Virus genome (UHGV): UHGV-0216968
Reading direction: 5' to 3' (one strand)
From: a virus
Length of the DNA stretch: 9,409 nt
The position numbers and the translations under genes are program-made. This document shows, one piece after another, positions 1 to 9,409 of the stretch. Every line of letters begins with the position of its first letter. The first letter of the stretch is position 1. Under the pieces are notes generated by a model. It was not told where the DNA came from. It ran no database searches and worked only from the letters and a program-made list of their open reading frames with translations.

Positions 1-120
1 AACAATAACGGTAAATACCGCACTTACAACTTACGTGGTGAAAGAGTGAAAGATGAAAAACCACAGTTAAGTTTGTTATTGCAAGTGCTGACAGACGAGA
101 AGCGTTTTATCGCTAACTGA
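1..120 (+). CDS. 3' end of flanking chromosomal gene (partial, last 39 codons)
   Basis: Frame 1 is open from the window edge to TGA at 118-120 (...LTDEKRFIAN*). A perfect 10-bp inverted repeat (113-122 / 130-139) overlaps the stop. Product cannot be identified from 39 residues. Confidence 0.35.
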   Translation, partial: NNNGKYRTYNLRGERVKDEKPQLSLLLQVLTDEKRFIAN

Positions 121-152
121 TTAATTATAAATCAGTTAGCAAAATATCTTAC

Positions 153-180
153 TTGCAATCGGTGTGGAAAACGGTAGTAT
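153..180 (+). promoter_or_regulatory. sigma70-like promoter for the tRNA
   Basis: TTGCAA (153-158), 16-bp spacer, TAGTAT (175-180), about 14 nt upstream of the tRNA 5' end. Confidence 0.4.
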
Positions 181-194
181 TAGCAGCCACGAGT

Positions 195-271
195 CGGCAC
201 GTAGCGCAGCCTGGTAGCGCACCGTCATGGGGTGTCGGGGGTCGGAGGTTCAAATCCTCTCGTGCCGACCA
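195..271 (+). tRNA. proL: tRNA-Pro (anticodon GGG)
   Basis: 77-nt cloverleaf: acceptor stem CGGCACG/CGTGCCG, D arm GCGC-AGCCTGGTA-GCGC, anticodon loop ATGGGGT, T arm GGAGG-TTCAAAT-CCTCT, encoded 3' CCA. Matches enterobacterial tRNA-Pro2 as I recall it. Confidence 0.85.
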
Positions 272-306
272 AATTGAATATCGGACAGCATCGGTAACCT
301 ATTGAA

Positions 307-339
307 AGCCCGTTAATTTACTGATTAACGGGCTTTTTT
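307..339 (+). terminator. rho-independent terminator after tRNA-Pro
   Basis: Perfect 11-bp stem AGCCCGTTAAT (307-317) / ATTAACGGGCT (324-334) with a 6-nt loop, followed by a T6 run ending at 339. Confidence 0.7.
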
Positions 340-394
340 GTTGTTTTCAGTCGCCGGATTGAATCGGTAAGATAGGGTTATAACCGGATTTTTT

Positions 395-463
395 AGCTAC
401 ACGTTTAGCTATACGGTCCAGCGTGTAGCTAAAGCCGTATAGCTACGACCAGGCATATAGCTA
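395..463. repeat. five copies of the palindromic hexamer TAGCTA upstream of int
   Basis: TAGCTA at 395, 406, 426, 440 and 458. The copies are arranged as interleaved inverted repeats (TAGCTACACG / CGTGTAGCTA and TAGCTATACGG / CCGTATAGCTA), ending about 18 bp before the int start codon. Confidence 0.6.
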
Positions 464-480
464 CCGATGGGTAAAAAAAC

Positions 481-1722
481 ATGGCACGAAAAACCACCCC
501 ACTAACCATTACGGAGATCAAAAACGCACGACCAGGGGAAAAGGAATACACCCTGCAGGATGGCGGAGGATTATTTCTTCTGGTGAAGCCCTCCGGATCA
601 AAAATATGGCGTTTTACGTACTACCGCCCGGCAGATAAAAAACGGACTATTATCAGCCTTGGATCGCTGAATGATGTTTCCCTGTCTGATGCCAGAGAGC
701 GACGGAATGAATACAGGTCACTAATAGCAAAGGGAACTGACCCACAGGACCATGAACGCCGGAAACGTGAAGCAGAGAGCCGGAAAAAGGGCAACACGTT
801 CGAAAAAGTTGCCTCGGACTGGTACGAGATGAAAAAAGGCCAGAATCTGGCTTACAACACGATTAAGGATATCTGGCGATCCCTGGAAAAATACGTATTC
901 CCGTACATCGGAAACACGCCAATAGATACCCTCACCGCTCGCCGCTTTGTTGAGATACTCACCCCCATTAAAGCACGCGGCAACCTGGAAACTCTGAAAC
1001 GCGTTTTGCAGCGCATCAATGAAGTGATGGATTTTGCCGCCAACAGTGGGCTGATTGACATCAACACCGCCGCGAACGTCCGCAAGGCATTCCCCTCACC
1101 CACCAAAAAGCACATGCCAACCATCCGACCGGAACAGCTACCGCAGCTAATGCACGATTTATCGGTCGCCAGCATAGAACGGCAAACCAGATTGCTGATT
1201 GAGTGGCAACTGCTGACCGTAGCACGCCCAGCCGAAGCAGCCGCCGCACGCTGGGAAGAAATAGATCTCGATGCCGAAACCTGGACGATTCCAGCCGGAC
1301 GCATGAAGATGCGCCGTGACCATGTGATCCCCCTTTGCGGTCAGGCTATGGCTGTACTGGAAACCATGAAGCCAATCAGCGCACACAGGGAACACGTTTT
1401 TCCCAGCCTTAAAAATCCGATGCTGCCAATGAGCAGCCAGACCGCTAACGCTGCATTACGCCGGATGGGTTACGCTGGTGTGCTGGTGTCTCACGGATTA
1501 CGCGCCATATTCAGCACAGCAGCGAACGAGGAAGGATTCGAACCGGACGTAATCGAGGCCGCACTCGCACACGTGGACACGAACGAGGTAAGGCGGGCAT
1601 ATAACCGAAGTAACTACCTGGAAAAGCGCGTGGTGCTTATGCGCTGGTGGGGTGAATTTGTGGAGGCTGCAGCTACCGGAGTGACCATAGCCAGCGGTAA
1701 AAGGGGTATCCGTGCCGTGTAG
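481..1722 (+). CDS. int: P4-family tyrosine integrase, 413 aa
   Basis: ATG at 481 preceded by an A-rich leader. The N-terminal region (LQDGGGLFLLVKPSGSKIWRFTYYR) is typical of the arm-binding domain of P4-like integrases. The C-terminal catalytic region carries RRDHVIPL, HGLRAIFST and RRAYNRSNY (putative catalytic Tyr). It lies immediately downstream of a tRNA gene. Confidence 0.93.
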   Translation: MARKTTPLTITEIKNARPGEKEYTLQDGGGLFLLVKPSGSKIWRFTYYRPADKKRTIISLGSLNDVSLSDARERRNEYRSLIAKGTDPQDHERRKREAESRKKGNTFEKVASDWYEMKKGQNLAYNTIKDIWRSLEKYVFPYIGNTPIDTLTARRFVEILTPIKARGNLETLKRVLQRINEVMDFAANSGLIDINTAANVRKAFPSPTKKHMPTIRPEQLPQLMHDLSVASIERQTRLLIEWQLLTVARPAEAAAARWEEIDLDAETWTIPAGRMKMRRDHVIPLCGQAMAVLETMKPISAHREHVFPSLKNPMLPMSSQTANAALRRMGYAGVLVSHGLRAIFSTAANEEGFEPDVIEAALAHVDTNEVRRAYNRSNYLEKRVVLMRWWGEFVEAAATGVTIASGKRGIRAV

Positions 1723-1820
1723 CTGTACAAAAAGCCAGTAAAAGCGATGCAAACCATGCCAAACCATCGTATAATTGCCACAAATTTAACGACAAGGCCG
1801 GAGTATATGAAAATTCTATT

Positions 1821-2051
1821 ATGCAAAATACCACCGCCTACGGCGAAGGGCTGCAACTGGCGTTAATGGCAAATCGTGAATTCTGGTCAACATACGATCC
1901 GGAAGACAAATCAACAGCCCCCACAAAACACGAGGTAGTCAGTTTTTTGCGCTCGCGTGGTGCATCGAAAAATCTGGCTGAAAGCATCGACAAGGTGCTG
2001 AGGCCCACCAGCCTTAAATGCGGTGGGCGACCTAAGAAGTGGAAACGGTAA
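1821..2051 (+). CDS. hypothetical small protein, 76 aa, basic C-terminal tail (GGRPKKWKR)
   Basis: ORF with ATG at 1821. A TATAAT box lies upstream at 1770-1775 and a terminator hairpin immediately follows the stop. No clear Shine-Dalgarno and no recognisable family. Confidence 0.35.
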   Translation: MQNTTAYGEGLQLALMANREFWSTYDPEDKSTAPTKHEVVSFLRSRGASKNLAESIDKVLRPTSLKCGGRPKKWKR

Positions 2052-2056
2052 TCACA

Positions 2057-2086
2057 ATAGCGGCCCTTTGCGGTCGCTATTTTTTT
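2057..2086 (+). terminator. rho-independent terminator
   Basis: Stem ATAGCGGCC (2057-2065) / GGTCGCTAT (2072-2080) with one G-U wobble, then T6 (2081-2086). Confidence 0.6.
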
Positions 2087-2122
2087 GCAGAAAGAAAAGC
2101 GTAATCAATGAGATAAAAAACA

Positions 2123-2156
2123 GTGGGTACCGTTTTAAAACGGTGGGTACTGTTTT
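2123..2156. promoter_or_regulatory. operator-like site upstream of alpA
   Basis: Direct repeat GTGGGTACCGTTTT (2123-2136) and GTGGGTACTGTTTT (2143-2156) enclosing a perfect 16-bp palindrome ACCGTTTTAAAACGGT (2129-2144), about 65 bp upstream of the alpA start. Confidence 0.4.
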
Positions 2157-2221
2157 TCCCGCCCTGCCCTGTTTTACCGTATTTATCACCGGAATACGCC
2201 GGATTAACGAGGTAAAACATA

Positions 2222-2428
2222 GTGGAAACAATCAGAAAAATACTTACCCGTCAGGAAGTAAAAAATATTCTGCGCATCAAGGCAGACAGTTCGCTACAGG
2301 ACATGATCAACGCCGGAAAATTCCCGAAAGGCTTCAAAATCGGTCTGCGTCGTGTTGGCTGGTATGAAGATGAAGTGCTGGCCTGGCTGAAAGAGCGCGA
2401 GGAAGAAGCGCGCGGAACGGCTGCGTAA
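2222..2428 (+). CDS. alpA: AlpA-family (MerR-like HTH) regulator/excisionase-like protein, 68 aa
   Basis: GTG start at 2222 with GAGG at 2208-2211. Translation METIRKILTRQEVKNILRIKADSSLQDMINAGKFPKGFKIGLRRVGWYEDEVLAWL has the characteristic AlpA pattern (R-VGW-E-EV-AWL). Position directly after int is typical for Gram-negative PICI/P4-like islands. Confidence 0.85.
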   Translation: METIRKILTRQEVKNILRIKADSSLQDMINAGKFPKGFKIGLRRVGWYEDEVLAWLKEREEEARGTAA

Positions 2429-2578
2429 TGGTGTGAGGCGTAACGCGATGAACATAACAAAAAGCGCCCCGTTGCCGGAGCGCCCTTGCGAACAATTAAC
2501 CTGCTGCGAAAAAAATGGATCAGTGCAGGGGAATTATATCAACCGTGTGGCGAAGCGCCACAATTGCCGGATAACGGG

Positions 2579-2607
2579 CAAAACAAAGGCGACCGGGGGC
2601 GGTCGCC
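2579..2607 (-). terminator. rho-independent terminator on the minus strand
   Basis: Perfect 8-bp inverted repeat GGCGACCG-ggg-CGGTCGCC (2588-2607). On the minus strand it is followed by UUUGUUUUG (plus-strand 2579-2587). Lies about 68 bp downstream of the minus-strand small ORF. Confidence 0.45.
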
Positions 2608-2674
2608 AATGGATATACACTAAACTTGAACGCATCACCAACAATGCCACATTTGCGGCTGGTGGGCAATGTGA

Positions 2675-2854
2675 TCAGTCAGATTTGGTTCGTTCCAAGG
2701 TTTGCAACGAGAGCTTTTTCCTGTGCTCTTTAAGGAATTTCTCAAGAGCAAACGAACAAGGTGCGAATCTTTCTGATTCATGTTCATGCGCTATATTTTT
2801 GCGTCGTCTCTTACGAGTTGGCGATGGTGTTTTGGTTGATTCTGTGTCGCTCAT
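2675..2854 (-). CDS. hypothetical small basic protein, 59 aa (MSDTESTKTPSPTRKRRRKNIAHEHESERFAPCSFALEKFLKEHRKKLSLQTLERTKSD)
   Basis: Hand-translated minus-strand ORF, below the size cut-off of the supplied ORF track. ATG at 2854-2852 with AGGA 7 nt upstream, TGA at 2677-2675. Sits 57 bp downstream of the RHH gene on the same strand and before a minus-strand terminator. No family recognised. Confidence 0.3.
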   Translation of the reverse strand: MSDTESTKTPSPTRKRRRKNIAHEHESERFAPCSFALEKFLKEHRKKLSLQTLERTKSD

Positions 2855-2911
2855 GGTGCTGTCCTGTAAAGCAATGCGCCTGCGTTCCTCAAACTATGGC
2901 GCTGATAGTGG

Positions 2912-3217
2912 CTATTCCTGCTCTTTGACCTTGCGTCGCTGGAGTTCTTCACGCGCGACGGTGACGAGTTGCCCGATCTCCTCGGCGGCTTTGACTCCGA
3001 TTTTTTCCACCTGCGCTAGGGCATCGAGCGAAGAAACCAGGAGGTTTTCTCCGCTTCCTTCTGCCTGGCGGCGGGCGATTTCACCGCGCATGGCGGTTAC
3101 TATGAATCCGGCGTTGCTTTCACCGTCCAGTTTTACGGATTCCATGCCTTCAATAACATCATGCGGGATCCGAGCTGTCAGTGATTGTGATTTTGCGTTT
3201 TTTGAACCTGTAGCCAT
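2912..3217 (-). CDS. ribbon-helix-helix-type DNA-binding protein, candidate island regulator, 101 aa
   Basis: ATG at 3217-3215 with GAGAGG about 7 nt upstream. The ORF-track start at 3232 is a TTG that contains this Shine-Dalgarno. N-terminal SLTARIPHDVIEGMESVKL fits the strand-helix pattern of Arc/CopG/MetJ RHH domains. Transcribed divergently from the downstream operon. Confidence 0.6.
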   Translation of the reverse strand: MATGSKNAKSQSLTARIPHDVIEGMESVKLDGESNAGFIVTAMRGEIARRQAEGSGENLLVSSLDALAQVEKIGVKAAEEIGQLVTVAREELQRRKVKEQE

Positions 3218-3238
3218 CTGTAATCCTCTCAATGAAAG

Positions 3239-3315
3239 TGTAAGACAATATACACATAAAAAGTCTTACATAAAAGCATTGACATGTAAGCCACCTATAA
3301 ATAAAGTTACTTACA
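3239..3315. promoter_or_regulatory. divergent promoter/operator region
   Basis: Rightward promoter TTGACA (3279-3284), 17 bp, TAAAGT (3302-3307). Leftward -10 candidate TATATT on the minus strand (3247-3252). Four copies of TGTAAG/CTTACA (3239-3244, 3265-3270, 3285-3290, 3310-3315) including the inverted repeat TGTAAGAC (3239-3246) / GTCTTACA (3263-3270). Hairpin CACCTTG-ttaatg-CAAGGTG at 3314-3333 in the rightward leader. Confidence 0.45.
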
Positions 3316-3413
3316 CCTTGTTAATGCAAGGTGCAGAAACGACGAAACCCCGCACTGTAGGAGCAGTAACGGGGCTTCTAACCACCAACGATAGCAAGAT
3401 TATCGAGGTAGCT

Positions 3414-3620
3414 ATGTTAAATCATACCACACACCCGCAAGGGCGGGACTCGCACAACCTGAATAAATACATCTGGCGTTTTATCGCCCTGAGCACGGCA
3501 CAACCGCGCGTGATTCACATCGTGGCCACCAGCGAACAGGAAGCCCGTCAACAATCACCGGCTGGCTGCGTGATGGTATTCGCCGCCCGTATTCGTCAGG
3601 AGGTGCACCATGTGCAATAA
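3414..3620 (+). CDS. hypothetical small protein, 68 aa
   Basis: ATG at 3414 with GAGG at 3405-3408. It is the C-terminal part of the implausible 395-aa track ORF. First gene after the rightward promoter and its stop overlaps the next start. Product unknown. Confidence 0.4.
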   Translation: MLNHTTHPQGRDSHNLNKYIWRFIALSTAQPRVIHIVATSEQEARQQSPAGCVMVFAARIRQEVHHVQ

Positions 3621-3846
3621 CACCTGTCCGGACGCAGCCGCCGAAGCTATCAAAACACTGATTGATGCGCTGATTGATATTTCTGTTATCGCGGACAGGG
3701 CGCATAAGCACGCTACCAGTGAAACAGAATATGCCGGGGCTTTCGTTCCTCACTCACTGGCTGTTATGCAATTTAGTGCTGATATGGCGCTGAATGAGGC
3801 AGGCAAAATTCTTACCGCAGATATTCAGGGGGCGCACCATGCATGA
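3610..3846 (+). CDS. hypothetical protein, 78 aa
   Basis: ATG at 3610 preceded by AGGAGG (3597-3602). Start overlaps the upstream stop (ATGTGCAATAA), indicating translational coupling. Confidence 0.5.
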   Translation: MCNNTCPDAAAEAIKTLIDALIDISVIADRAHKHATSETEYAGAFVPHSLAVMQFSADMALNEAGKILTADIQGAHHA

Positions 3847-4066
3847 TGACCGTTATTTTAAATCAATGAGCCATGCAGAAAATGCGCTGACTAACAGTGA
3901 ATGCTTGCGGCAAATATTGCTTATCTGGCTTGATGGTTTAAGTGATGCGCCGGAAGATGAACGTGAATCTAATCTTGCTGGTGCGTTTATTTCATTACTC
4001 GACACAGTAATCGTCGAATTAAATAAAGCGATCGAAATTCACGATAAAAAAATAAACGCGGAATAA
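3839..4066 (+). CDS. hypothetical protein, 75 aa
   Basis: ATG at 3839 with AGGGGG at 3825-3830, overlapping the upstream stop (ATGCATGA). The track ORF starts at an in-frame ATG at 3794 that has no Shine-Dalgarno and a 53-nt overlap. Confidence 0.45.
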   Translation: MHDDRYFKSMSHAENALTNSECLRQILLIWLDGLSDAPEDERESNLAGAFISLLDTVIVELNKAIEIHDKKINAE

Positions 4067-4071
4067 AAACC

Positions 4072-4371
4072 ATGAAACAGAAAATTTCTGGCTTTACTGC
4101 CAGCGGCCTCCCTCGGCCTGAAATCTGCCCCGGCGATATTTACCGGGATAAATACGGCAGCACGGTAATGATTAAAGGTGTTGCCGGACGGTGCGTTACT
4201 TACCGCCGTGAAGGTTATGAATATGACTGCGTGATGCCTGTTTATCAGTTCCGGCGTGATTTTTCTCTGGTACAGAACGCAACACGCGGTAAGCCCACCA
4301 GTTGGGAAAAAGCACGGGAAAATATTAAGAAAATAAAAAGCATGCTCAGCGCATCCAGAGGTAAAAAATGA
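4072..4371 (+). CDS. hypothetical protein, 99 aa
   Basis: ATG at 4072. Its stop overlaps the start of the replication gene (ATGA at 4368-4371). Basic C-terminus. No recognisable family. Confidence 0.5.
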   Translation: MKQKISGFTASGLPRPEICPGDIYRDKYGSTVMIKGVAGRCVTYRREGYEYDCVMPVYQFRRDFSLVQNATRGKPTSWEKARENIKKIKSMLSASRGKK

Positions 4372-5774
4372 AACTGGCACCGAACGTAAAACTGTTACCG
4401 AAAGATAAACACACTGAGGCGGTTATTTTTGCGGGTGATAATGCTCACTCCTTTGCAGAACATTACATGATTGCACAGGCCAAAAAAGCAGGCGATCCCA
4501 TCCCTCCGGTTTACCTGGGCCGTTATCAGTTAAGCGAACTGGACAATTTACAGATTGTTGATGAAGGACGATACAGAGCAAAGGTCATACGCGCCGGAAA
4601 CCTGGACGATATGCAGATGCTGACCATTGCCACCAAACTGGCGATCGCAGGTGTCCGGGAAGCGCGGTTACTTTCAGAGAATTTCGAACTACTGGAAGAC
4701 TGGAGCGAGCAACTACCGCGCCTTAAAGAAACCTGGGAACGTGGGGAAAGCCTGGTCATGAATGGTGGAAAGCGAAAAATCACACTTCCCATCTCATGGG
4801 GTTCTGAGGGATTCGACGCGCAGCAAAGCTACGTAATTAAGGGGCTTATTCCGGCTGAATCATTATGCAGCACCTACGGGGCCAGCGGCTCTTATAAATC
4901 GTTCCTGGCTATTTCCTGGTCGTGCCATGTTGCCACAGGTATGGCATGGGGAGGCCGCAGGGTCAGTAAGGGCGCGGTTATCTATATAGCTGGTGAAGGC
5001 AGCATGGGCGTAAAACGCCGCGTTAAGGCGTGGGAGATAACCCACGACAAGGTGGTTACAGATTTGTGCATCATTAACGCGCCTGTTTTCCCTGCATCGC
5101 CTGACTATGTGGAGCAGGTTATCAGAACTGCCGGACTTGTTAAGAGCAGAACGGGCGAAAATGTGCGGCTGATTGTGATAGACACGCTGGCCCGTTGCTT
5201 TGGTGGGAATGATGAAAATGATTCCCGTGATATGGGCGCATTTATCCAGGGGTGTGACGCGATAAAGCAGGCCACAGGGGCCACGGTGCTGGTGGTTCAC
5301 CATTCCGGCAAGGATGAAACAAAGGGGGCGCGTGGTTCCAGCGCATTCCGTGCCGCACTGGATGCAGAGTACCGAATCAGCCGGGAAAATTCAGACGTTA
5401 CAGCACTGGTGGCGGCGTGTACGAAGATGAAGGACGCAGAGGAGCCAAAAGAAAGCGCATACGACCTTAAAAGCGTGGAGGTGTTTACCGATACAGATGG
5501 CGAAGAGATTGTGTCCATGGTGGTGATTGACGTTCCCCGCGCCCCTGCTGAACTGGAACGCATCGAGGAGGCCGGGAACAAGACGGAAAATCACACGGCT
5601 TTATGGGGTTGTATCCGGTCACGTATACAGCATGGTGATAAATGCACGATCCCGCTGCTACGTGATGACATGAAAAAGCTGGGATATGACACAAAACACC
5701 TTAAACGATGGTTAGCCAAACTGGAAAAAGACGGCGTGATTTGCGTCGATGGGGATGATGTTCACCCACTGTAA
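4368..5774 (+). CDS. replication protein: RecA-superfamily RepA/DnaB-like ATPase, 468 aa
   Basis: ATG at 4368 with AGAGG at 4357-4361. Contains a P-loop-like YGASGSYKS, Walker B-like RLIVIDTL and a VLVVHHSGKD motif characteristic of RepA-type replicative helicases. The C-terminal ~60 aa look like a small DNA-binding domain. Iterons follow immediately downstream. Confidence 0.85.
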   Translation: MKLAPNVKLLPKDKHTEAVIFAGDNAHSFAEHYMIAQAKKAGDPIPPVYLGRYQLSELDNLQIVDEGRYRAKVIRAGNLDDMQMLTIATKLAIAGVREARLLSENFELLEDWSEQLPRLKETWERGESLVMNGGKRKITLPISWGSEGFDAQQSYVIKGLIPAESLCSTYGASGSYKSFLAISWSCHVATGMAWGGRRVSKGAVIYIAGEGSMGVKRRVKAWEITHDKVVTDLCIINAPVFPASPDYVEQVIRTAGLVKSRTGENVRLIVIDTLARCFGGNDENDSRDMGAFIQGCDAIKQATGATVLVVHHSGKDETKGARGSSAFRAALDAEYRISRENSDVTALVAACTKMKDAEEPKESAYDLKSVEVFTDTDGEEIVSMVVIDVPRAPAELERIEEAGNKTENHTALWGCIRSRIQHGDKCTIPLLRDDMKKLGYDTKHLKRWLAKLEKDGVICVDGDDVHPL

Positions 5775-5973
5775 AAAGTGGGCGTTAAAAGTGGGAATAG
5801 TGGGTAATTTAACTGGAATTTAACAAAATCGCCCACTTTCCCACATGTATACATCCCAAAAAGTGGGCACTAAAAAAATTCTTATGAAACAGTACGATAT
5901 AAAACCACAAAATCCCAGGTGGGACGAAGTGGGAAACCATGAAAAGTGGGTAGAAAAAGTGGGCACAGGTGGG
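5765..5973. repeat. iteron cluster, putative origin of replication
   Basis: At least 12 copies of GTGGG (consensus about AAGTGGG): plus-strand at 5778, 5791, 5800, 5863, 5919, 5929, 5946, 5959 and 5969, inverted at 5765-5769, 5832-5836 and 5840-5844. They flank an AT-rich stretch at about 5868-5915. Confidence 0.6.
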
Positions 5974-5976
5974 CGC

Positions 5977-6228
5977 ATGACCAGAAAAACCAGAGATAAG
6001 ACAGCACCAAAATATCGCGCATTAGACATGACAGAGCACGCCTTAAAGGTGGCAATCAGAACGATAGACCGCCACGCCGGAGAAGGATACGCGAAAGCAC
6101 ATCCCGAACTGATAAGCGCATTCATGACCACGACGGCGGCAAATTTTGCCACGCTGACAGAGCGGGAGATTGCCGAAGCGGAACAGGTAACAACAATCAA
6201 CGTTAAAACCGGAGAGGTGGAATCATGA
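5977..6228 (+). CDS. hypothetical protein, 83 aa
   Basis: ATG at 5977 preferred over the track start at 5845, because 5845-5976 is occupied by the iterons. Stop overlaps the SSB start (ATGA at 6225-6228). Confidence 0.4.
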   Translation: MTRKTRDKTAPKYRALDMTEHALKVAIRTIDRHAGEGYAKAHPELISAFMTTTAANFATLTEREIAEAEQVTTINVKTGEVES

Positions 6229-6647
6229 CAGCACAGATAGCGGCTTACGGGCGGCTGGTGGCTGACCCGCAGTTAAAGACCACCAGCAAAGGGACACAAA
6301 TGGCGATGGCGAGTATGGCGGTTCCCCTGCCGTGCAGCCAGGCAGATGACGGAACGGCGACGATGTGGTTATCTGTCCTGGCGTTTGGCAGACAGGCCGA
6401 CGCACTGGCAAAACACCACAAAGGCGAACTCCTGAGCGTGGCGGGTAACATGCAGGTGAGCCAGTGGACAGGCCAGAACGGCGAAACGCGGCAGGGCTGG
6501 CAGGTTATCGCAGACAGTGTAATCAGTGCCAGAACGGCGCGACCGGGCGGCAAAAAAGGTCAACAGGGCCAGGCCACTGACGCACTGAACAGGGCAAAAC
6601 AACAGTCAGGGAATGATGATCCGTACAGGGATGACATACCGTTTTAA
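6225..6647 (+). CDS. ssb: single-stranded DNA-binding protein, 140 aa
   Basis: GGAGAGGTGG (6211-6220) precedes the ATG at 6225. OB-fold-like N-terminal region (AYGRLVADPQLKTTSKG..., WLSVLAFGRQADAL...). Gly/Gln-rich linker and a C-terminal acidic tail DDPYRDDIPF, ending in the DDIPF-type motif that is the hallmark of bacterial and phage SSBs. Confidence 0.8.
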   Translation: MTAQIAAYGRLVADPQLKTTSKGTQMAMASMAVPLPCSQADDGTATMWLSVLAFGRQADALAKHHKGELLSVAGNMQVSQWTGQNGETRQGWQVIADSVISARTARPGGKKGQQGQATDALNRAKQQSGNDDPYRDDIPF

Positions 6648-6655
6648 GCAACGAG

Positions 6656-6687
6656 TGACAGAAGCCGGAGCAATCCGGCTTCTGTCA
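6656..6687 (+). other. very stable hairpin, possible terminator or attenuator between replication and capsid modules
   Basis: Perfect 14-bp stem TGACAGAAGCCGGA (6656-6669) / TCCGGCTTCTGTCA (6674-6687) with loop GCAA, 9 nt after the SSB stop. No U-tract follows. A second imperfect hairpin at 6717-6734 is preceded by A8 (6709-6716), so it is terminator-like on the minus strand. Confidence 0.4.
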
Positions 6688-6828
6688 GTTGAGTCCGTCA
6701 CACCACGCAAAAAAAAGGCCGGAATGTTCCGACCCCTTCATCACCAAAGAGAATAATTTATGTCTTTGAACTTGTAACGCTGCACAGAATGACACGTAAC
6801 GCCGGATAAATAAACGAAGATTGAAACT

Positions 6829-6858
6829 TTGCACACTATTGCATAGCAATGCATAAAG
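6829..6858. promoter_or_regulatory. phased TTGCA(C/T) repeats upstream of the capsid gene, candidate late promoter/activator site
   Basis: TTGCAC (6829-6834), TTGCAT (6839-6844) and ATGCAT (6849-6854) at exact 10-bp spacing, including the inverted repeat TGCAT-agca-ATGCA (6840-6853). Located about 65 bp upstream of the capsid gene start in an AT-rich intergenic region. Confidence 0.3.
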
Positions 6859-6919
6859 ATGCCGAACAAGGCTGATGATAAGATTAACGCGACACTTTTA
6901 CTAAGTATTAAGAGGTTGT

Positions 6920-7960
6920 ATGAGTGATTTATATTCGCCAGCTATGTTAATACAGGTTGTTAATGCCGAAGATATTCAATGGCAGATTAATTCTTTATTT
7001 ATAAACCTTTTTTTTAAGCGAGTCGTTACATTTGAGACGCGGGATATTGCGCTTGATATTATTGACGATCCAGACATCCCGATGGCTGCATTTTGTTCCC
7101 CTATGGTTGGTAGCAAAGTCTCACGCGATGAAGGCTACGAATCGAAAGTAATTCGTCCTGGCTACATGAAGCCAAAAAGTAGTATCGATCCAAATAAAAT
7201 AGCCGTTCGTCAACCAGGCGTATCACCGGAACAATTCAATGCATATTCATCACGCAGTTTCAAAATAAAGCGAGCGTTAGTAAGACAAGCGCAGGCAATT
7301 CGTGCGCGTATTGAGTGGCTTGCTGTTCAGGCGGTTACAACGGGGAAAAATATCATTGAAGGCGATGGAATTGAACGTTATGAACTGGACTGGAATATAA
7401 AACCACAAAATATTATCACGCAGTCCGGCGGTACGGAGTGGAGCGGTAGAGATTTATCAACATTTGATCCAAACGATGACATCGAAGAGTACGCAGAAAT
7501 CAGCGAAGGTACTACAAATATCATCGTAATGGGCCGCAACGTATGGAAAAAATACCGCGCCTTTAAAGCAGTAAAAGATTGCCTTGATACTCGACGGGGA
7601 TCTAATTCCGTTCTTGAAACGGCCCTGAAAAATCTTGGGGATTCTGTAAGCTTCAAGGGTTACGTTGGCGATGTTGCTATTGTGGTATATAGCGGACGTT
7701 ATACCGACGAGGACGGAACTGAAAGATATTTCCTTGATCCTGATTTGATGGTGCTTGGCAACACATCATTACAGGGCATCGTTGCCTACGGTGGCATTCA
7801 GGATCCTGAGTTAATCAGAATGGGGCTTACTAAAGCCGAACTTGCGCCGAAAAATTACATCGTACCAGGTGATCCGGCTATTGAGTACGTACAAACGCAC
7901 TCTGCACCACAGCCAATACCGGCCCGCATCAATCGTTTTGTTACCGTTCGCATTGGTTAA
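6920..7960 (+). CDS. major capsid protein, lambda gpE family, 346 aa
   Basis: AGAGG at 6911-6915 precedes the ATG. Blocks shared with lambda gpE as I recall it: NIITQSGGTEWSGRD, FDPNDDIEEYA, NIIVMG, FKAVKDCLDTRRGSNSVLETA, GDVAIVVYSG, MVLGNT, GDPA. Length is close to lambda E (341 aa). Confidence 0.92.
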   Translation: MSDLYSPAMLIQVVNAEDIQWQINSLFINLFFKRVVTFETRDIALDIIDDPDIPMAAFCSPMVGSKVSRDEGYESKVIRPGYMKPKSSIDPNKIAVRQPGVSPEQFNAYSSRSFKIKRALVRQAQAIRARIEWLAVQAVTTGKNIIEGDGIERYELDWNIKPQNIITQSGGTEWSGRDLSTFDPNDDIEEYAEISEGTTNIIVMGRNVWKKYRAFKAVKDCLDTRRGSNSVLETALKNLGDSVSFKGYVGDVAIVVYSGRYTDEDGTERYFLDPDLMVLGNTSLQGIVAYGGIQDPELIRMGLTKAELAPKNYIVPGDPAIEYVQTHSAPQPIPARINRFVTVRIG

Positions 7961-7969
7961 GGGGGAGCA

Positions 7970-8311
7970 ATGGCTACTCATTACACTGAACTCATGGCTG
8001 GCACTGAAGCACTGGTTACTACGTTGGGGATATTTTCAGCTAATAAAGGGGTAATTCCTGCATTTACGCCACTGATGCAAGAAGATGCAACTGGTGCACT
8101 GGTGGTATGGGATGGAACGAGCGCAGGCAAAGCTGTTTATGTTTCCGCTGTACAAATCGATACAGCGACAAAAACGCAGGCTCAGGTTTATAAAACCGGC
8201 GTCTTAAATGTTGATGCTCTGAACTGGCCTGAATCTGTAACACAACTATCAGCAAAAGTTGCTGCGTTTGTTGGCTCAGGTATTTCTGTTCAGCCGCTGG
8301 CACGTGTGTGA
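7970..8311 (+). CDS. head decoration protein, lambda gpD family, 113 aa
   Basis: Strong Shine-Dalgarno AAGGGGGAG before the ATG at 7970. Matches lambda gpD blocks: THY, TPLM, VVWDGT, YKTG...WPE, AAF.G.GIS. Size is close to lambda D (110 aa). Confidence 0.85.
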   Translation: MATHYTELMAGTEALVTTLGIFSANKGVIPAFTPLMQEDATGALVVWDGTSAGKAVYVSAVQIDTATKTQAQVYKTGVLNVDALNWPESVTQLSAKVAAFVGSGISVQPLARV

Positions 8312-8320
8312 GGTACGAGA

Positions 8321-8665
8321 ATGATTGAAAGAGATAGTCAGCTACGAGAGCTATTAGATATCGATGATAAAATGCGCTTAAGCGAGCGTCTTGTCGATAT
8401 GGATCAGGTAGTGGAGCTTACAACCCTTAGCCGTCGCACATTGCTAAACCTTGAGGCTCGCGGAGAGTTCCCCGAACGCGTACAGGTTACGAAAGGCCGC
8501 AAGGCATGGTATTTAAGCGAAGTTGTTGCGTGGATTAACAACATTCCGCGCGCATCAAATTATTGCCTTGTTCCCACCCCCGAAAAACCTGATGCGGCGT
8601 TATGCCTCAAGATTGAACGCGCCAGGCGTAATGCCCTGAAAGGGCGCAATAAGTTGATTGGTTGA
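8321..8665 (+). CDS. second AlpA/excisionase-like HTH protein, 114 aa
   Basis: GAGGT at 8311-8315 precedes the ATG. Central region VVELTTLSRRTLLNLEARGEFPERVQVTKGRKAWYLSEVVAWI is a MerR/AlpA-type HTH. Stop lies 26 bp before the cosQ-like sequence. Confidence 0.7.
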   Translation: MIERDSQLRELLDIDDKMRLSERLVDMDQVVELTTLSRRTLLNLEARGEFPERVQVTKGRKAWYLSEVVAWINNIPRASNYCLVPTPEKPDAALCLKIERARRNALKGRNKLIG

Positions 8666-8691
8666 TGAAATTAGGGCCCGTTCTGGCTGGC

Positions 8692-8756
8692 GGGTCCTTT
8701 CCGGCGATCCGGCAGGCTACGGGGCGGCGACCTCGCGGGTTTTCGCTATTTATGAG
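8692..8756 (+). other. lambda-type cohesive end site (cosQ-like, cosN, proximal cosB)
   Basis: GGGCGGCGACCT at 8722-8733 equals the lambda 12-nt cohesive end. Upstream CGGGTCCTTTCCGGCGATCCGGCAGGCTACG matches the lambda right end with 3 substitutions. Downstream CGCGGGTTTTCGCTATTTATGA matches lambda left-end nt 13-34. Comparison is from memory of the lambda sequence. Confidence 0.8.
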
Positions 8757-8866
8757 CCTTTTTCGGGTGCTGGTGGTGGTTTTGTTGTTCGCTCTATCTC
8801 TATGAATAAAAAGGAAAAGATAAAGCCAATACACCAACCTGAAACATTACTTAAGTGGGGATATTG

Positions 8867-9409
8867 ATGAAATCGCACCTGATGAACAAAAAAAACATGG
8901 CGCAAAGCTGCCGTGTAAGTGCGACAGCGTTCGACAAGTGGGGAGTGACTCCCGTTGAACGTAAAGGCCGCGAGGCGTTTTATGATGTTGCCAGCGTAAT
9001 AGACAATCGGGTTAGCAATGCAATTAACCAGATTACAGACGACAAAGGCGAGATTGATGATGATGAACTCCTACGAGTCAGGATCAGATTGCTGACAGCA
9101 CAGGCAGAGGCGCAGGAGCTTAAAAACGAGCGCGAACGCGGCGACGTTATTGATACAGCGTTTTGTATATACGTGCTTTCAAAATTGGCGAGTCAGATTT
9201 CTTCAATCATGGACAGCCTGCCGCTTGCCATGACAAGGAAGTTTCCCGACATGAAGCCGTCTATGCTGGATGGACTGAAAAAAGAAGTTATCAGAGCCTG
9301 TAACGCATGCGCAAAACTTGACGAAAACATACCGCTGATGCTGTCCGATTATCTGATGGAAACTGCCGGAAACGTACCGGATAAGTTGCAGCCGAATAAA
9401 GATAAGTAA
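8867..9409 (+). CDS. terminase small subunit, lambda Nu1 family, 180 aa
   Basis: ATG at 8867; alternative starts are GTG 8855 and ATG 8882. The N-terminus (MNKKNMAQSCRVSATAFDKWG...FYDVASVIDNR) parallels the Nu1 winged HTH (MEVNKKQLADIFGASIRTIQNWQ...LYDSAAVIKWY). The C-terminal half is strongly Nu1-like (RLLTAQAEAQELKNERERGDVIDTAFCIYVLSKLASQISSIMDSLPLAMTRKFPDMK). Stop falls at the window end. Confidence 0.88.
   Translation: MKSHLMNKKNMAQSCRVSATAFDKWGVTPVERKGREAFYDVASVIDNRVSNAINQITDDKGEIDDDELLRVRIRLLTAQAEAQELKNERERGDVIDTAFCIYVLSKLASQISSIMDSLPLAMTRKFPDMKPSMLDGLKKEVIRACNACAKLDENIPLMLSDYLMETAGNVPDKLQPNKDK

What the first reader, a model, noticed from the sequence alone, without database searches (positions are those of the whole stretch)
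8867..9409. Nu1-like small terminase with conserved large-terminase-interaction half and divergent DNA-binding half
The C-terminal half is highly similar to the lambda Nu1 region that I recall as the gpA-interacting and oligomerisation domain. The N-terminal winged-HTH region that reads the cosB R elements is much more divergent. Combined with the divergent cosB, this suggests a specificity-swapped small terminase that still docks to a helper gpA-type large terminase, which would be a packaging-redirection mechanism.
Basis: inference. Interest (0 to 1): 0.65.

Follow-up and report, generated by a model that had tools for sequence, protein, structure and literature searches.

The report
Phage satellite's own small terminase
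This gene is the small terminase of a phage satellite, next to the satellite's own packaging site; it most likely steers a lambda-type helper phage's packaging motor onto satellite DNA, a known strategy in an uncharacterised lambda-family version.

Summary
The ORF is real: 8867-9409, 180 aa, Pfam Phage_Nu1 E=3e-24. It is the last gene of a roughly 9-kb EcCICFT073-family phage satellite at tRNA-Pro.

It is misread, though.
- The DNA-binding domain is not novel. It is the phage N15 gp1 type (56% identity, no gaps), and divergence from N15 gp1 is uniform (47%/47%).
- The last 41 aligned residues, the TerL-binding tail, are only 39% identical to lambda.
- Across 96 satellite homologs the DNA-binding domain is the conserved part (88%) and the tail the variable part (62%). 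The tail is under purifying selection and recombines.

The packaging-redirection idea is supported by context.
- The island has no large terminase.
- Its cosQ/cosN are lambda-like, followed by a satellite-specific cosB element (GGTGGTGGTTTTGTTGTT) where lambda R3 sits.
- terS fills the slot that rppA fills in EcCICFT073.
- The identical protein recurs in satellites embedded in prophages that encode lambda Nu1/gpA.

Docking to gpA is inferred, not shown. This is a new member of a known kind, of modest interest.

The parts
8692..8755 (+). The cosQ-cosN block shared with lambda-type helpers. It comprises the GGGTCCT cosQ-like motif at 8692-8698, the 12-nt cohesive-end sequence GGGCGGCGACCT at 8722-8733, and the conserved cgcgggttttcgctatttatga that follows.
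   Evidence: It aligns with the joined lambda and N15 ends and with the EcCICFT073 cos. The same 67 bp hit lambdoid cos sites in most E. coli genomes, for example DLP12 upstream of nohD.
8772..8789 (+). Candidate satellite cosB R element, GGTGGTGGTTTTGTTGTT, at bp 51-68 from the first base of cosN. This is the position of lambda R3 (bp 50-65).
   Evidence: It is conserved as GGTGGTGGT[T/G]TTGTT[G/A]TT in the E. coli satellites compared and in the Enterobacter/Citrobacter-type satellite loci from metagenome assemblies, while the flanks diverge. It shares GTTGTTGTT with N15 R3 and differs from the lambda and EcCICFT073 cosB. The R3 positions are taken from PMC9026076. Binding is inferred.
8867..9409 (+). 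terS, the satellite small terminase of the Nu1 family (180 aa plus stop).
   Evidence: RefSeq annotates homologs as 'terminase small subunit'. The start codon is supported by the conserved N-terminus M..HL.NKKNMA across genera.
8867..9034 (+). N-terminal winged-HTH DNA-binding domain (about aa 1-56), of the N15 gp1 type.
   Evidence: 56% identity to N15 gp1 with no gaps. A family profile hits lambda TerS 1-98 (PDB 6hn7_B) at E=0.003. Predicted secondary structure is helix-helix-hairpin-helix, from a low-confidence model. This is the most conserved segment in 96 satellite homologs, with 88% mean pairwise identity.
9083..9244 (+). Central helical segment (aa 73-126), corresponding to lambda Nu1 87-140, the self-assembly region.
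   Evidence: 56% identity to lambda and 54% to N15. Mean pairwise identity is 86% within satellites. The conserved GxVIDTxF at its N-terminal side is the recombination junction seen in mosaic homologs.
9245..9406 (+). C-terminal tail (aa 127-167, corresponding to the gpA-binding segment lambda 141-181) plus a 13-aa extension specific to the E. coli satellite TerS (aa 168-180).
   Evidence: 39% identity to lambda and N15. It keeps the [LI]PxxLxxY motif found in nearly all gpA-partnered Nu1 homologs examined. It is the most variable segment in satellites, at 62% mean pairwise identity. dN/dS is 0.11-0.36 and dS is up to 2.4.
481..8665 (+). The rest of the satellite, given as context: integrase 481-1722, AlpA 2222-2428, DUF4222 4072-4371, RepA-type helicase 4368-5774, SSB 6225-6647, gpE-like capsid protein 6920-7960, gpD-like decoration protein 7970-8311, AlpA-like regulator 8321-8665. 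tRNA-Pro lies at 195-271, to the left.
   Evidence: Pfam, ARAGORN, and synteny with the annotated islands L002, L015, L061 and L006.

Best explanation
The ORF encodes the small terminase of a phage satellite. The satellite is a Gram-negative PICI of the EcCICFT073 family, here integrated at tRNA-Pro.

The satellite keeps the cosQ and cosN of lambda-type helpers, so a helper gpA-type large terminase can nick it and terminate packaging on it. It replaces the helper's cosB with its own element, GGTGGTGGTTTTGTTGTT, at the R3 position.

The proposed mechanism has three steps.
1. The N15-type winged-HTH domain of the satellite TerS binds that element.
2. The helical C-terminal half self-assembles. 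Through its tail, which keeps the [LI]PxxLxxY motif shared by nearly all the gpA-partnered Nu1 homologs examined, it recruits the helper's TerL, because the satellite has none.
3. Satellite concatemers are then cut and packaged into helper-built heads.

The gene is the functional counterpart of rpp in EcCICFT073 and occupies the same slot.

Shown here: family membership, domain anatomy, the cos/cosB architecture, the absence of TerL, co-residence with lambda terminase, and the conservation pattern. Inferred: DNA binding to the cosB element, direct TerL docking, and any interference with helper packaging.
For: 1. Nu1 family: Pfam E=3.3e-24; BLASTP E=2e-36.
2. Satellite context without TerL. Relatives end 93 aa after terS.
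3. In a scan of species-representative genomes, every homolog at 57% identity or more lies behind satellite capsid, decoration and AlpA genes with no gpA gene. All 40 loci at 46% or less have a gpA-like gene directly after terS, usually overlapping its end.
4. cosQ/cosN are conserved with lambda. The conserved satellite cosB motif at the R3 position co-occurs with the conserved DNA-binding domain across genera.
5. The O157:H7 island and EcCICFT073 lie at the same locus and are 94% and 90% identical on either side of a swapped cosB+terS or cosB+rppA cassette.
6. The exact protein occurs in satellites embedded in the portal gene of prophages whose Nu1 is 180/181 and gpA 637/641 identical to lambda. 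Those prophages carry the lambda R3/R2/R1 cosB.
7. The tail is under purifying selection, with dN/dS 0.11-0.36, and keeps the family-wide tail motif.
8. Mosaic homologs show that the DNA-binding domain and the C-half behave as separable modules.
9. Precedents: SaPI TerS and Rpp (PMC6739421); TerS is listed as a PICI core gene (PMC10085698).
Against: - No experiment or complex model was possible.
- The tail is only 39-40% identical to lambda Nu1. In phages, tail identity tracks identity of the first 48 residues of gpA (Spearman 0.61, p=2.5e-4). At this level of identity, phage 21 TerS and lambda TerS are not interchangeable for TerL binding (PMC9026076). A match to lambda gpA therefore cannot be assumed.
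- N15 terminase is reported to package lambda DNA (PMC9026076), so an N15-type DNA-binding domain need not give exclusive specificity.
- The monomer model is of low confidence (pLDDT 56).
- The helper of the tRNA-Pro island in this window is not identified.
Confidence: 0.68

Rival explanations
1. Rpp-like heteromer. The satellite TerS does not bind TerL itself. It co-assembles with helper Nu1 through the conserved central self-assembly segment. The mixed oligomer reads the satellite cosB, and helper Nu1 tails hold gpA. This would also poison helper packaging.
For: The central segment is the part most similar to lambda (56%), whereas the tail is only 39%. Rpp, encoded in the same slot of sister islands, works through a TerS heterocomplex and needs helper TerS (PMC6739421). 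The satellite-type C-half is a lineage distinct from every phage TerS.
Against: The tail keeps the motif shared by nearly all the gpA-partnered TerS examined and is under purifying selection. That would be unnecessary if helper tails did the docking. Unlike Rpp, the protein is a complete Nu1 homolog, and it has no similarity to RppA. SaPI TerS sets a precedent for direct use of helper TerL.
Confidence: 0.2
2. Passenger late gene. terS was captured from a helper together with the capsid and decoration genes. It is redundant or decaying and has no role in redirecting packaging.
For: Satellites of this family capture helper late genes, and a PICI capsid gene was dispensable for transfer (bioRxiv 10.1101/2022.07.18.500453; PMC6092414). 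Some copies are frameshifted at an A6 run.
Against: Intact copies are present in 763 of 5426 complete E. coli genomes. dN/dS is 0.05-0.36. The gene is conserved across genera and always paired with the conserved cosB motif. It is not a copy of any known helper TerS: identity to phages is 48% or less. In the composites it differs from the resident helper Nu1 and from the helper cosB.
Confidence: 0.05
3. Interference only. The protein mainly sequesters helper TerL or binds the helper cos to block the helper, acting as a defence or decoy, and is not needed for satellite packaging.
For: PICIs typically interfere with helper packaging, and Rpp does both jobs. An N15-type DNA-binding domain may also recognise lambda R3.
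Against: The conserved pairing with a dedicated cosB element immediately upstream argues for a cis-packaging role.
Confidence: 0.05

Closest known systems
Phage lambda gpNu1 (TerS, PF07471)
   Same: It belongs to the same family and has about the same length. [quoted passage not shown] The gene lies directly downstream of cosN/cosB. The cosQ/cosN sequences are the same.
   Different: Overall identity is 38%, with 25-34% in the DNA-binding domain and 39% in the tail. No overlapping gpA gene follows. Its cosB is a single different element, not R3-I1-R2-R1. It has a 13-aa C-terminal extension.
Phage N15 gp1 (TerS)
   Same: This is the closest phage relative (47.6% identity). It has the same DNA-binding domain type (FDKWGV.PVE..GRE.F.DV). 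Its cosB is reduced to one R3-like element containing GTTGTTGTT.
   Different: N15 gp1 is followed by its own TerL, and its C-half is lambda-like (78% to lambda). The satellite C-half is only 47% identical. The satellite element lies 9 bp farther from cosN.
Rpp (RppA/B/C) of EcCICFT073-type PICIs
   Same: It occupies the same genomic slot, after the cos site in the same island family. It is allelic at the roxA-phoQ locus. The presumed outcome is the same: the helper lambda-type terminase is redirected to a satellite-specific cosB.
   Different: There is no detectable sequence similarity. Rpp is 139-154 aa, lacks the Nu1 C-half, and works only as a heterocomplex with helper TerS.
SaPI-encoded TerS (pac-type satellites of Staphylococcus aureus)
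   Same: Both are satellite-encoded TerS homologs that use the helper's TerL to package satellite DNA.
   Different: SaPI TerS belongs to a headful (pac) system and an unrelated TerS family, and it is assisted by Ppi. The protein here belongs to a cos system of the Nu1 family.

Membership tests
Nu1-type small terminase (Pfam PF07471 Phage_Nu1) | A significant match to the family profile, above the curated cutoff | tested here: met
   85.8 bits against a cutoff of 30, E=3.3e-24. Only aa 66-148 are aligned, to profile positions 80-162 of 164.
Nu1-type small terminase (Pfam PF07471 Phage_Nu1) | An N-terminal winged-HTH DNA-binding domain homologous to the lambda Nu1 domain | tested here: inconclusive
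   A family profile hits lambda TerS 1-98 (6hn7_B) at E=0.003 and 1J9I at only E about 1. Identity to the N15 gp1 N-terminus is 56%. The AF2 secondary structure fits, but pLDDT is 56, so no fold search was run.
Nu1-type small terminase (Pfam PF07471 Phage_Nu1) | A C-terminal tail that binds the N-terminus of a gpA-type TerL | not testable with these tools
   The [LI]PxxLxxY tail motif is retained. Identity to the lambda tail is 39%. No complex prediction or assay was available.
Nu1-type small terminase (Pfam PF07471 Phage_Nu1) | The gene lies just downstream of cosN/cosB and is followed by an overlapping gpA gene (the phage operon arrangement) | tested here: not met
   The position after cos is met (cosN at 8722, ATG at 8867). 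No gpA gene follows in any satellite relative, whereas all 40 phage loci have one directly after terS. This is a feature of the phage operon, not of the protein family.
Gram-negative PICI / helper-embedded satellite (EcCICFT073 family) | int-alpA, a replication module, optional capsid genes, then cos plus a packaging-specificity gene; unidirectional; about 10 kb; no tail or lysis genes and no TerL | tested here: met
   Window gene content. Synteny with EcCICFT073 and the annotated relatives. The organisation matches that described in PMC6092414, PMC10085698 and bioRxiv 10.1101/2022.07.18.500453.
Gram-negative PICI / helper-embedded satellite (EcCICFT073 family) | Induction, replication and high-frequency transfer that depend on a helper phage | not testable with these tools
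   Only co-residence with lambda-terminase prophages is shown.
Rpp (redirecting phage packaging) proteins | Sequence homology to RppA/B/C, and a size of 139-154 aa | tested here: not met
   BLASTP finds no alignment with E up to 100. hhalign probability is 0.1%. The protein is 180 aa.
Rpp (redirecting phage packaging) proteins | Forms a heterocomplex with helper TerS | not testable with these tools
   Kept as a rival mechanism.

The most novel reading that the evidence does not exclude
The C-terminal half is a dedicated 'satellite-type' module. It is found joined to at least two different DNA-binding domain types, and it recombines at the conserved GxVIDTxF junction. It may let a satellite TerS capture lambda-type TerL in competition with, or insulated from, helper Nu1. 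terS+cosB and rpp+cosB would then be interchangeable cassettes in one island family, with the TerS form a plausible ancestor of Rpp. That would address the open question of where Rpp came from.
Probability: 0.25. Interest if true: 0.6.

Novelty: new member of a known kind. Interest (0 to 1): 0.35.

Why it matters
Satellites of this family are common. The cos+terS unit is present in 763 of 5426 complete E. coli genomes, including Nissle 1917 and an O157:H7 strain (Z1831), and such satellites are described in the literature as carriers of virulence, resistance and defence genes.

For cos-type Gram-negative PICIs, the only packaging-redirection mechanism characterised in the papers I found is Rpp. 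A Nu1-family TerS sitting in the same slot is a second, simpler solution in sister islands. It gives a natural system for asking three questions:
- how TerS DNA specificity and TerL docking are separated;
- how much tail divergence lambda gpA tolerates;
- whether Rpp evolved from such a TerS.

The general principle, a satellite TerS redirecting helper packaging, is already established, and the gene is routinely annotated.

Tried and rejected
- Is the N-terminal domain Rpp-like, making the protein an Rpp-DBD/Nu1-CTD chimera? Rejected. There is no BLASTP or hhalign similarity to RppA, and the domain is N15-type.
- Does some phage or prophage TerS share the window's C-half, which would reveal the cognate helper? 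None was found. The best match in the phage collection is 47.6%. Nothing above 47% lies outside satellites among 1.84 billion representatives.
- PDB sequence search with the single protein found no TerS hit. Only the family profile reached lambda TerS 1-98.
- AlphaFold2 with a 13-sequence alignment gave pLDDT 56, too poor for a fold search, so none was run. A complex with gpA cannot be submitted with these tools.
- Rfam found only the tRNA. The promoter and terminator scan around cos and terS was at background level.
- The short cos-like hit in K-12 turned out to be the DLP12 cos upstream of nohD.
- Literature searches for a characterised Nu1-type PICI TerS found only general statements that some PICIs carry terS.
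- I could not test at scale whether tail alleles co-vary with helper gpA N-termini. The flank limits do not reach the helper TerL in most composites.

Full report
**The object.** Window 8867-9409 is an intact 180-codon ORF. It starts at ATG 8867, preceded by GGGGA at 8857-8861, and its TAA stop is the last triplet of the window. Pfam assigns it to Phage_Nu1 (PF07471) at 85.8 bits, E=3.3e-24, but only residues 66-148 align to the profile. BLASTP against lambda Nu1, taken from NC_001416, gives 38% identity, E=2e-36. RefSeq annotates close homologs as 'terminase small subunit'.

- *Against lambda Nu1.* A global alignment gives 18/72 (25%) identity for window aa 1-72 and 46/95 (48%) for aa 73-167. 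The difference is significant (Fisher p=0.002). Within the C-half, the central segment (lambda 87-140) is 56% identical. The last 41 aligned residues (lambda 141-181) are only 39% identical. That region is the TerL-binding tail according to the literature summarised in PMC9026076 and PMC6739421.
- *Against N15 gp1.* The nearest phage relative is N15 gp1, at 47.6% identity. Against it the N-terminal 50 residues are 56% identical without gaps, and the two halves are equally diverged (47% and 47%, p=1.0).
- *Conclusion.* The DNA-binding domain is not a novel divergent domain. It is the N15 type. The asymmetry against lambda is the ordinary difference between two DBD types within the Nu1 family. 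N15 against lambda shows it more strongly (36% against 78%). So do the 35 phage loci with this DBD motif that could be scored against lambda Nu1.

**Context.**
- *Gene content.* The window is a phage satellite. It carries tRNA-Pro (195-271), an integrase, AlpA, DUF4222, a RepA-type helicase, SSB, a gpE-like capsid protein, a gpD-like decoration protein and an AlpA-like regulator. These are followed by a cos site and terS.
- *No TerL.* Annotated relatives at tRNA-Pro (strain 504239 and Nissle 1917) and at roxA-phoQ (O157:H7) end with terS, a 93-aa ORF and then chromosomal genes. tblastn with lambda gpA and N15 gp2 finds no TerL in the window or in any satellite relative.
- *Same slot as rppA.* The architecture is that of EcCICFT073, with terS in the position of rppA. 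The O157:H7 island and EcCICFT073 lie at the same chromosomal locus. They are 94% identical from the capsid gene to about 35 bp past the start of cosN. They are unrelated across cosB plus terS or rppA, and 90% identical again afterwards. terS+cosB and rppA+cosB are therefore alternative cassettes.
- *No similarity to RppA.* RppA shows no sequence similarity to this protein.

**The cos site.**
- *Shared with lambda.* GGGCGGCGACCT at 8722-8733, the upstream GGGTCCT-containing cosQ region and the following 22 bp match lambda. After that the sequence departs from the lambda cosB.
- *Satellite-specific element.* I aligned the cos-to-ATG intervals of E. coli satellites with those of Enterobacter/Citrobacter-type satellite loci recovered from metagenome assemblies. 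One conserved element emerges, GGTGGTGGT[T/G]TTGTT[G/A]TT, at window 8772-8789. This is bp 51-68 counted from the first base of cosN, which is where lambda R3 (bp 50-65) lies. The flanks are not conserved.
- *Relation to N15.* The element shares GTTGTTGTT with the mapped N15 R3 (bp 48-60 according to PMC9026076), which fits the N15-type DBD. In N15 the motif is 9 bp closer to cosN.
- Binding of TerS to this element is an inference.

**Family-wide pattern.**
- *Conservation by segment.* Among 96 full-length homologs, mean pairwise identity is 88% in the DBD, 86% in the central segment and 62% in the tail. The DBD is more conserved than the tail in 87.5% of pairs.
- *Selection and ancestry.* The tail is not decaying: dN/dS is 0.11-0.36. 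Its synonymous divergence (up to 1.8-2.4) far exceeds that of the DBD (0.14-0.27) in the same gene pairs. This indicates old tail alleles brought in by recombination.
- *Mosaics.* A Superficieibacter satellite TerS has a satellite-type DBD (86-90% to the Enterobacter/Citrobacter-type satellite TerS) joined to a lambda-like C-half (81% central, 63% tail). Protein P0122, from another TerL-less island with a phage-21-like three-R cosB, has a 21-type N-part (68-89%) joined to a satellite-type C-half (78-100% to a satellite allele).
- *No phage source for the C-half.* A search of 1.84 billion representative proteins with the window's C-half found nothing above 47% identity outside satellites.

**Satellite versus phage homologs.** A scan of one genome per species returned 42 loci. 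The two at 57% identity or more, like the other satellite loci tested alongside them, lie behind satellite capsid, decoration and AlpA genes with no gpA gene. All 40 loci at 46% or less have a gpA-like gene directly after terS, usually overlapping its end. In those phages, TerS-tail identity to lambda correlates with identity of gpA residues 1-48 (Spearman 0.61, p=2.5e-4). Nearly all of them share a [LI]PxxLxxY tail motif. The satellites keep this motif, and the phage-21-type TerS lacks it.

**The helper.** The exact window protein is very widespread (5609 index blocks). All ten places shown are satellites embedded in the portal gene of a lambdoid prophage.
- In APEC O2-211 the embedding prophage encodes a Nu1 two residues from lambda's and a gpA 638/641 identical to lambda's (its last 297 residues are identical). 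It also carries a canonical lambda R3/R2/R1 cosB.
- In L066 the helper Nu1 is 180/181 and the helper gpA 637/641 identical to lambda.

The most likely partner TerL is therefore lambda-type gpA. Helper and satellite differ exactly in cosB and in the TerS DBD. This arrangement is the 'helper-embedded satellite' described by Tommasini et al..

**Mechanism.**
- *Best explanation (confidence about 0.68).* The satellite TerS reads the satellite cosB through its N15-type wHTH domain and brings the helper's gpA-type TerL to the shared cosN, so that satellite DNA is packaged.
- *Main open point.* Either the tail binds gpA directly, or the protein co-assembles with helper Nu1 as Rpp does. Direct binding is favoured by the retained motif, by purifying selection and by the SaPI precedent. 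Co-assembly is favoured by the better-conserved central segment and by the 39% tail identity.
- *Caveat.* N15 terminase is reported to package lambda DNA, so the DBD may not be strictly exclusive.
- The structure model was too poor to use.

**Novelty.** That PICIs can encode a TerS that redirects packaging is established. SaPI TerS is the precedent. Fillol-Salom 2018 notes that some Gram-negative PICIs carry terS. SatelliteFinder treats terS as a PICI core gene. My searches found no functional study of this Nu1-type cos TerS.

The following appear to be new details:
- the N15-type DBD paired with a conserved cosB element;
- the distinct, recombining satellite-type C-half;
- the allelic relation to rpp.

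They do not amount to a new kind of system.

Noticed in passing
L061 12047-12838 against L006 2600-3263 (relatives of window 8756-9409): cosB+terS in an O157:H7 island and cosB+rppA in EcCICFT073 are alternative cassettes at the same chromosomal locus (roxA-phoQ). The flanks are 94% and 90% identical.
   Followed up: partly
L015 11873, L061 12873, L006 3298 (downstream of terS or rppA; beyond the end of the window): In the EcCICFT073-like subfamily a second cos copy, in inverted orientation, brackets the cosB+terS/rpp cassette. This is the 'cos2' of Fillol-Salom 2018. It is absent from the window's closest relatives L002 and L014. It may mediate exchange or inversion of the cassette.
   Followed up: partly
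window 8772-8780 against L006 about 2604-2620: At the same distance from cosN, EcCICFT073 (the Rpp type) has CACCACCACCAC where TerS-type satellites have GGTGGTGGT. The two are reverse complements of the same triplet repeat. This is unexplained.
   Followed up: no
L018 10001-10504; P0122 = L060 8001-8585: Two mosaic satellite TerS proteins were found. One joins a satellite-type DBD to a lambda-like C-half. The other joins a phage-21-type DBD to a satellite-type C-half, in an island with a 21-like three-R cosB and a different cosN (GGGCGGCAGACG). The junction is at the conserved GxVIDTxF.
   Followed up: yes
window 9278-9283: An A6 run lies in the tail-coding region. Several database homologs (P0078, P0082, P0085, P0098) are frameshifted exactly here, which gives truncated tails.
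   Followed up: partly
window 6920-8311: The satellite carries its own lambda gpE-like major capsid gene and gpD-like decoration gene. They are about 41-43% identical to those of N15-like prophages found in the genome scan and 80-84% identical among satellites. Their role is unknown. The equivalent EcCICFT073 genes were reported not to account for its interference with lambda, and a PICI capsid-gene knockout is reported as tolerated.
   Followed up: no
window 8658-8867: A 69-codon TTG ORF spans the cos site. Its equivalent is annotated as a hypothetical protein in a RefSeq relative (L002 14663-14872). It is probably not a gene.
   Followed up: no
window 1-9409 against L002, L014 and L062: The island itself is mosaic. 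The integrase (100%) and RepA (95%) match the tRNA-Pro island of strain 504239. The cos-terS unit is 99.9% identical to that of portal-embedded satellites, which have a different integrase and a D5-type primase.
   Followed up: partly
L015 6897: An additional forward copy of the 11-mer GGGCGGCGACC lies inside the primase gene of the Nissle 1917 island.
   Followed up: no
window 8700-8767: The cosQ-cosN block matches sequences in most of the E. coli genomes searched (4666 of 5426 had a match to the query). In K-12 the match is the DLP12 cryptic-prophage cos upstream of nohD.
   Followed up: yes
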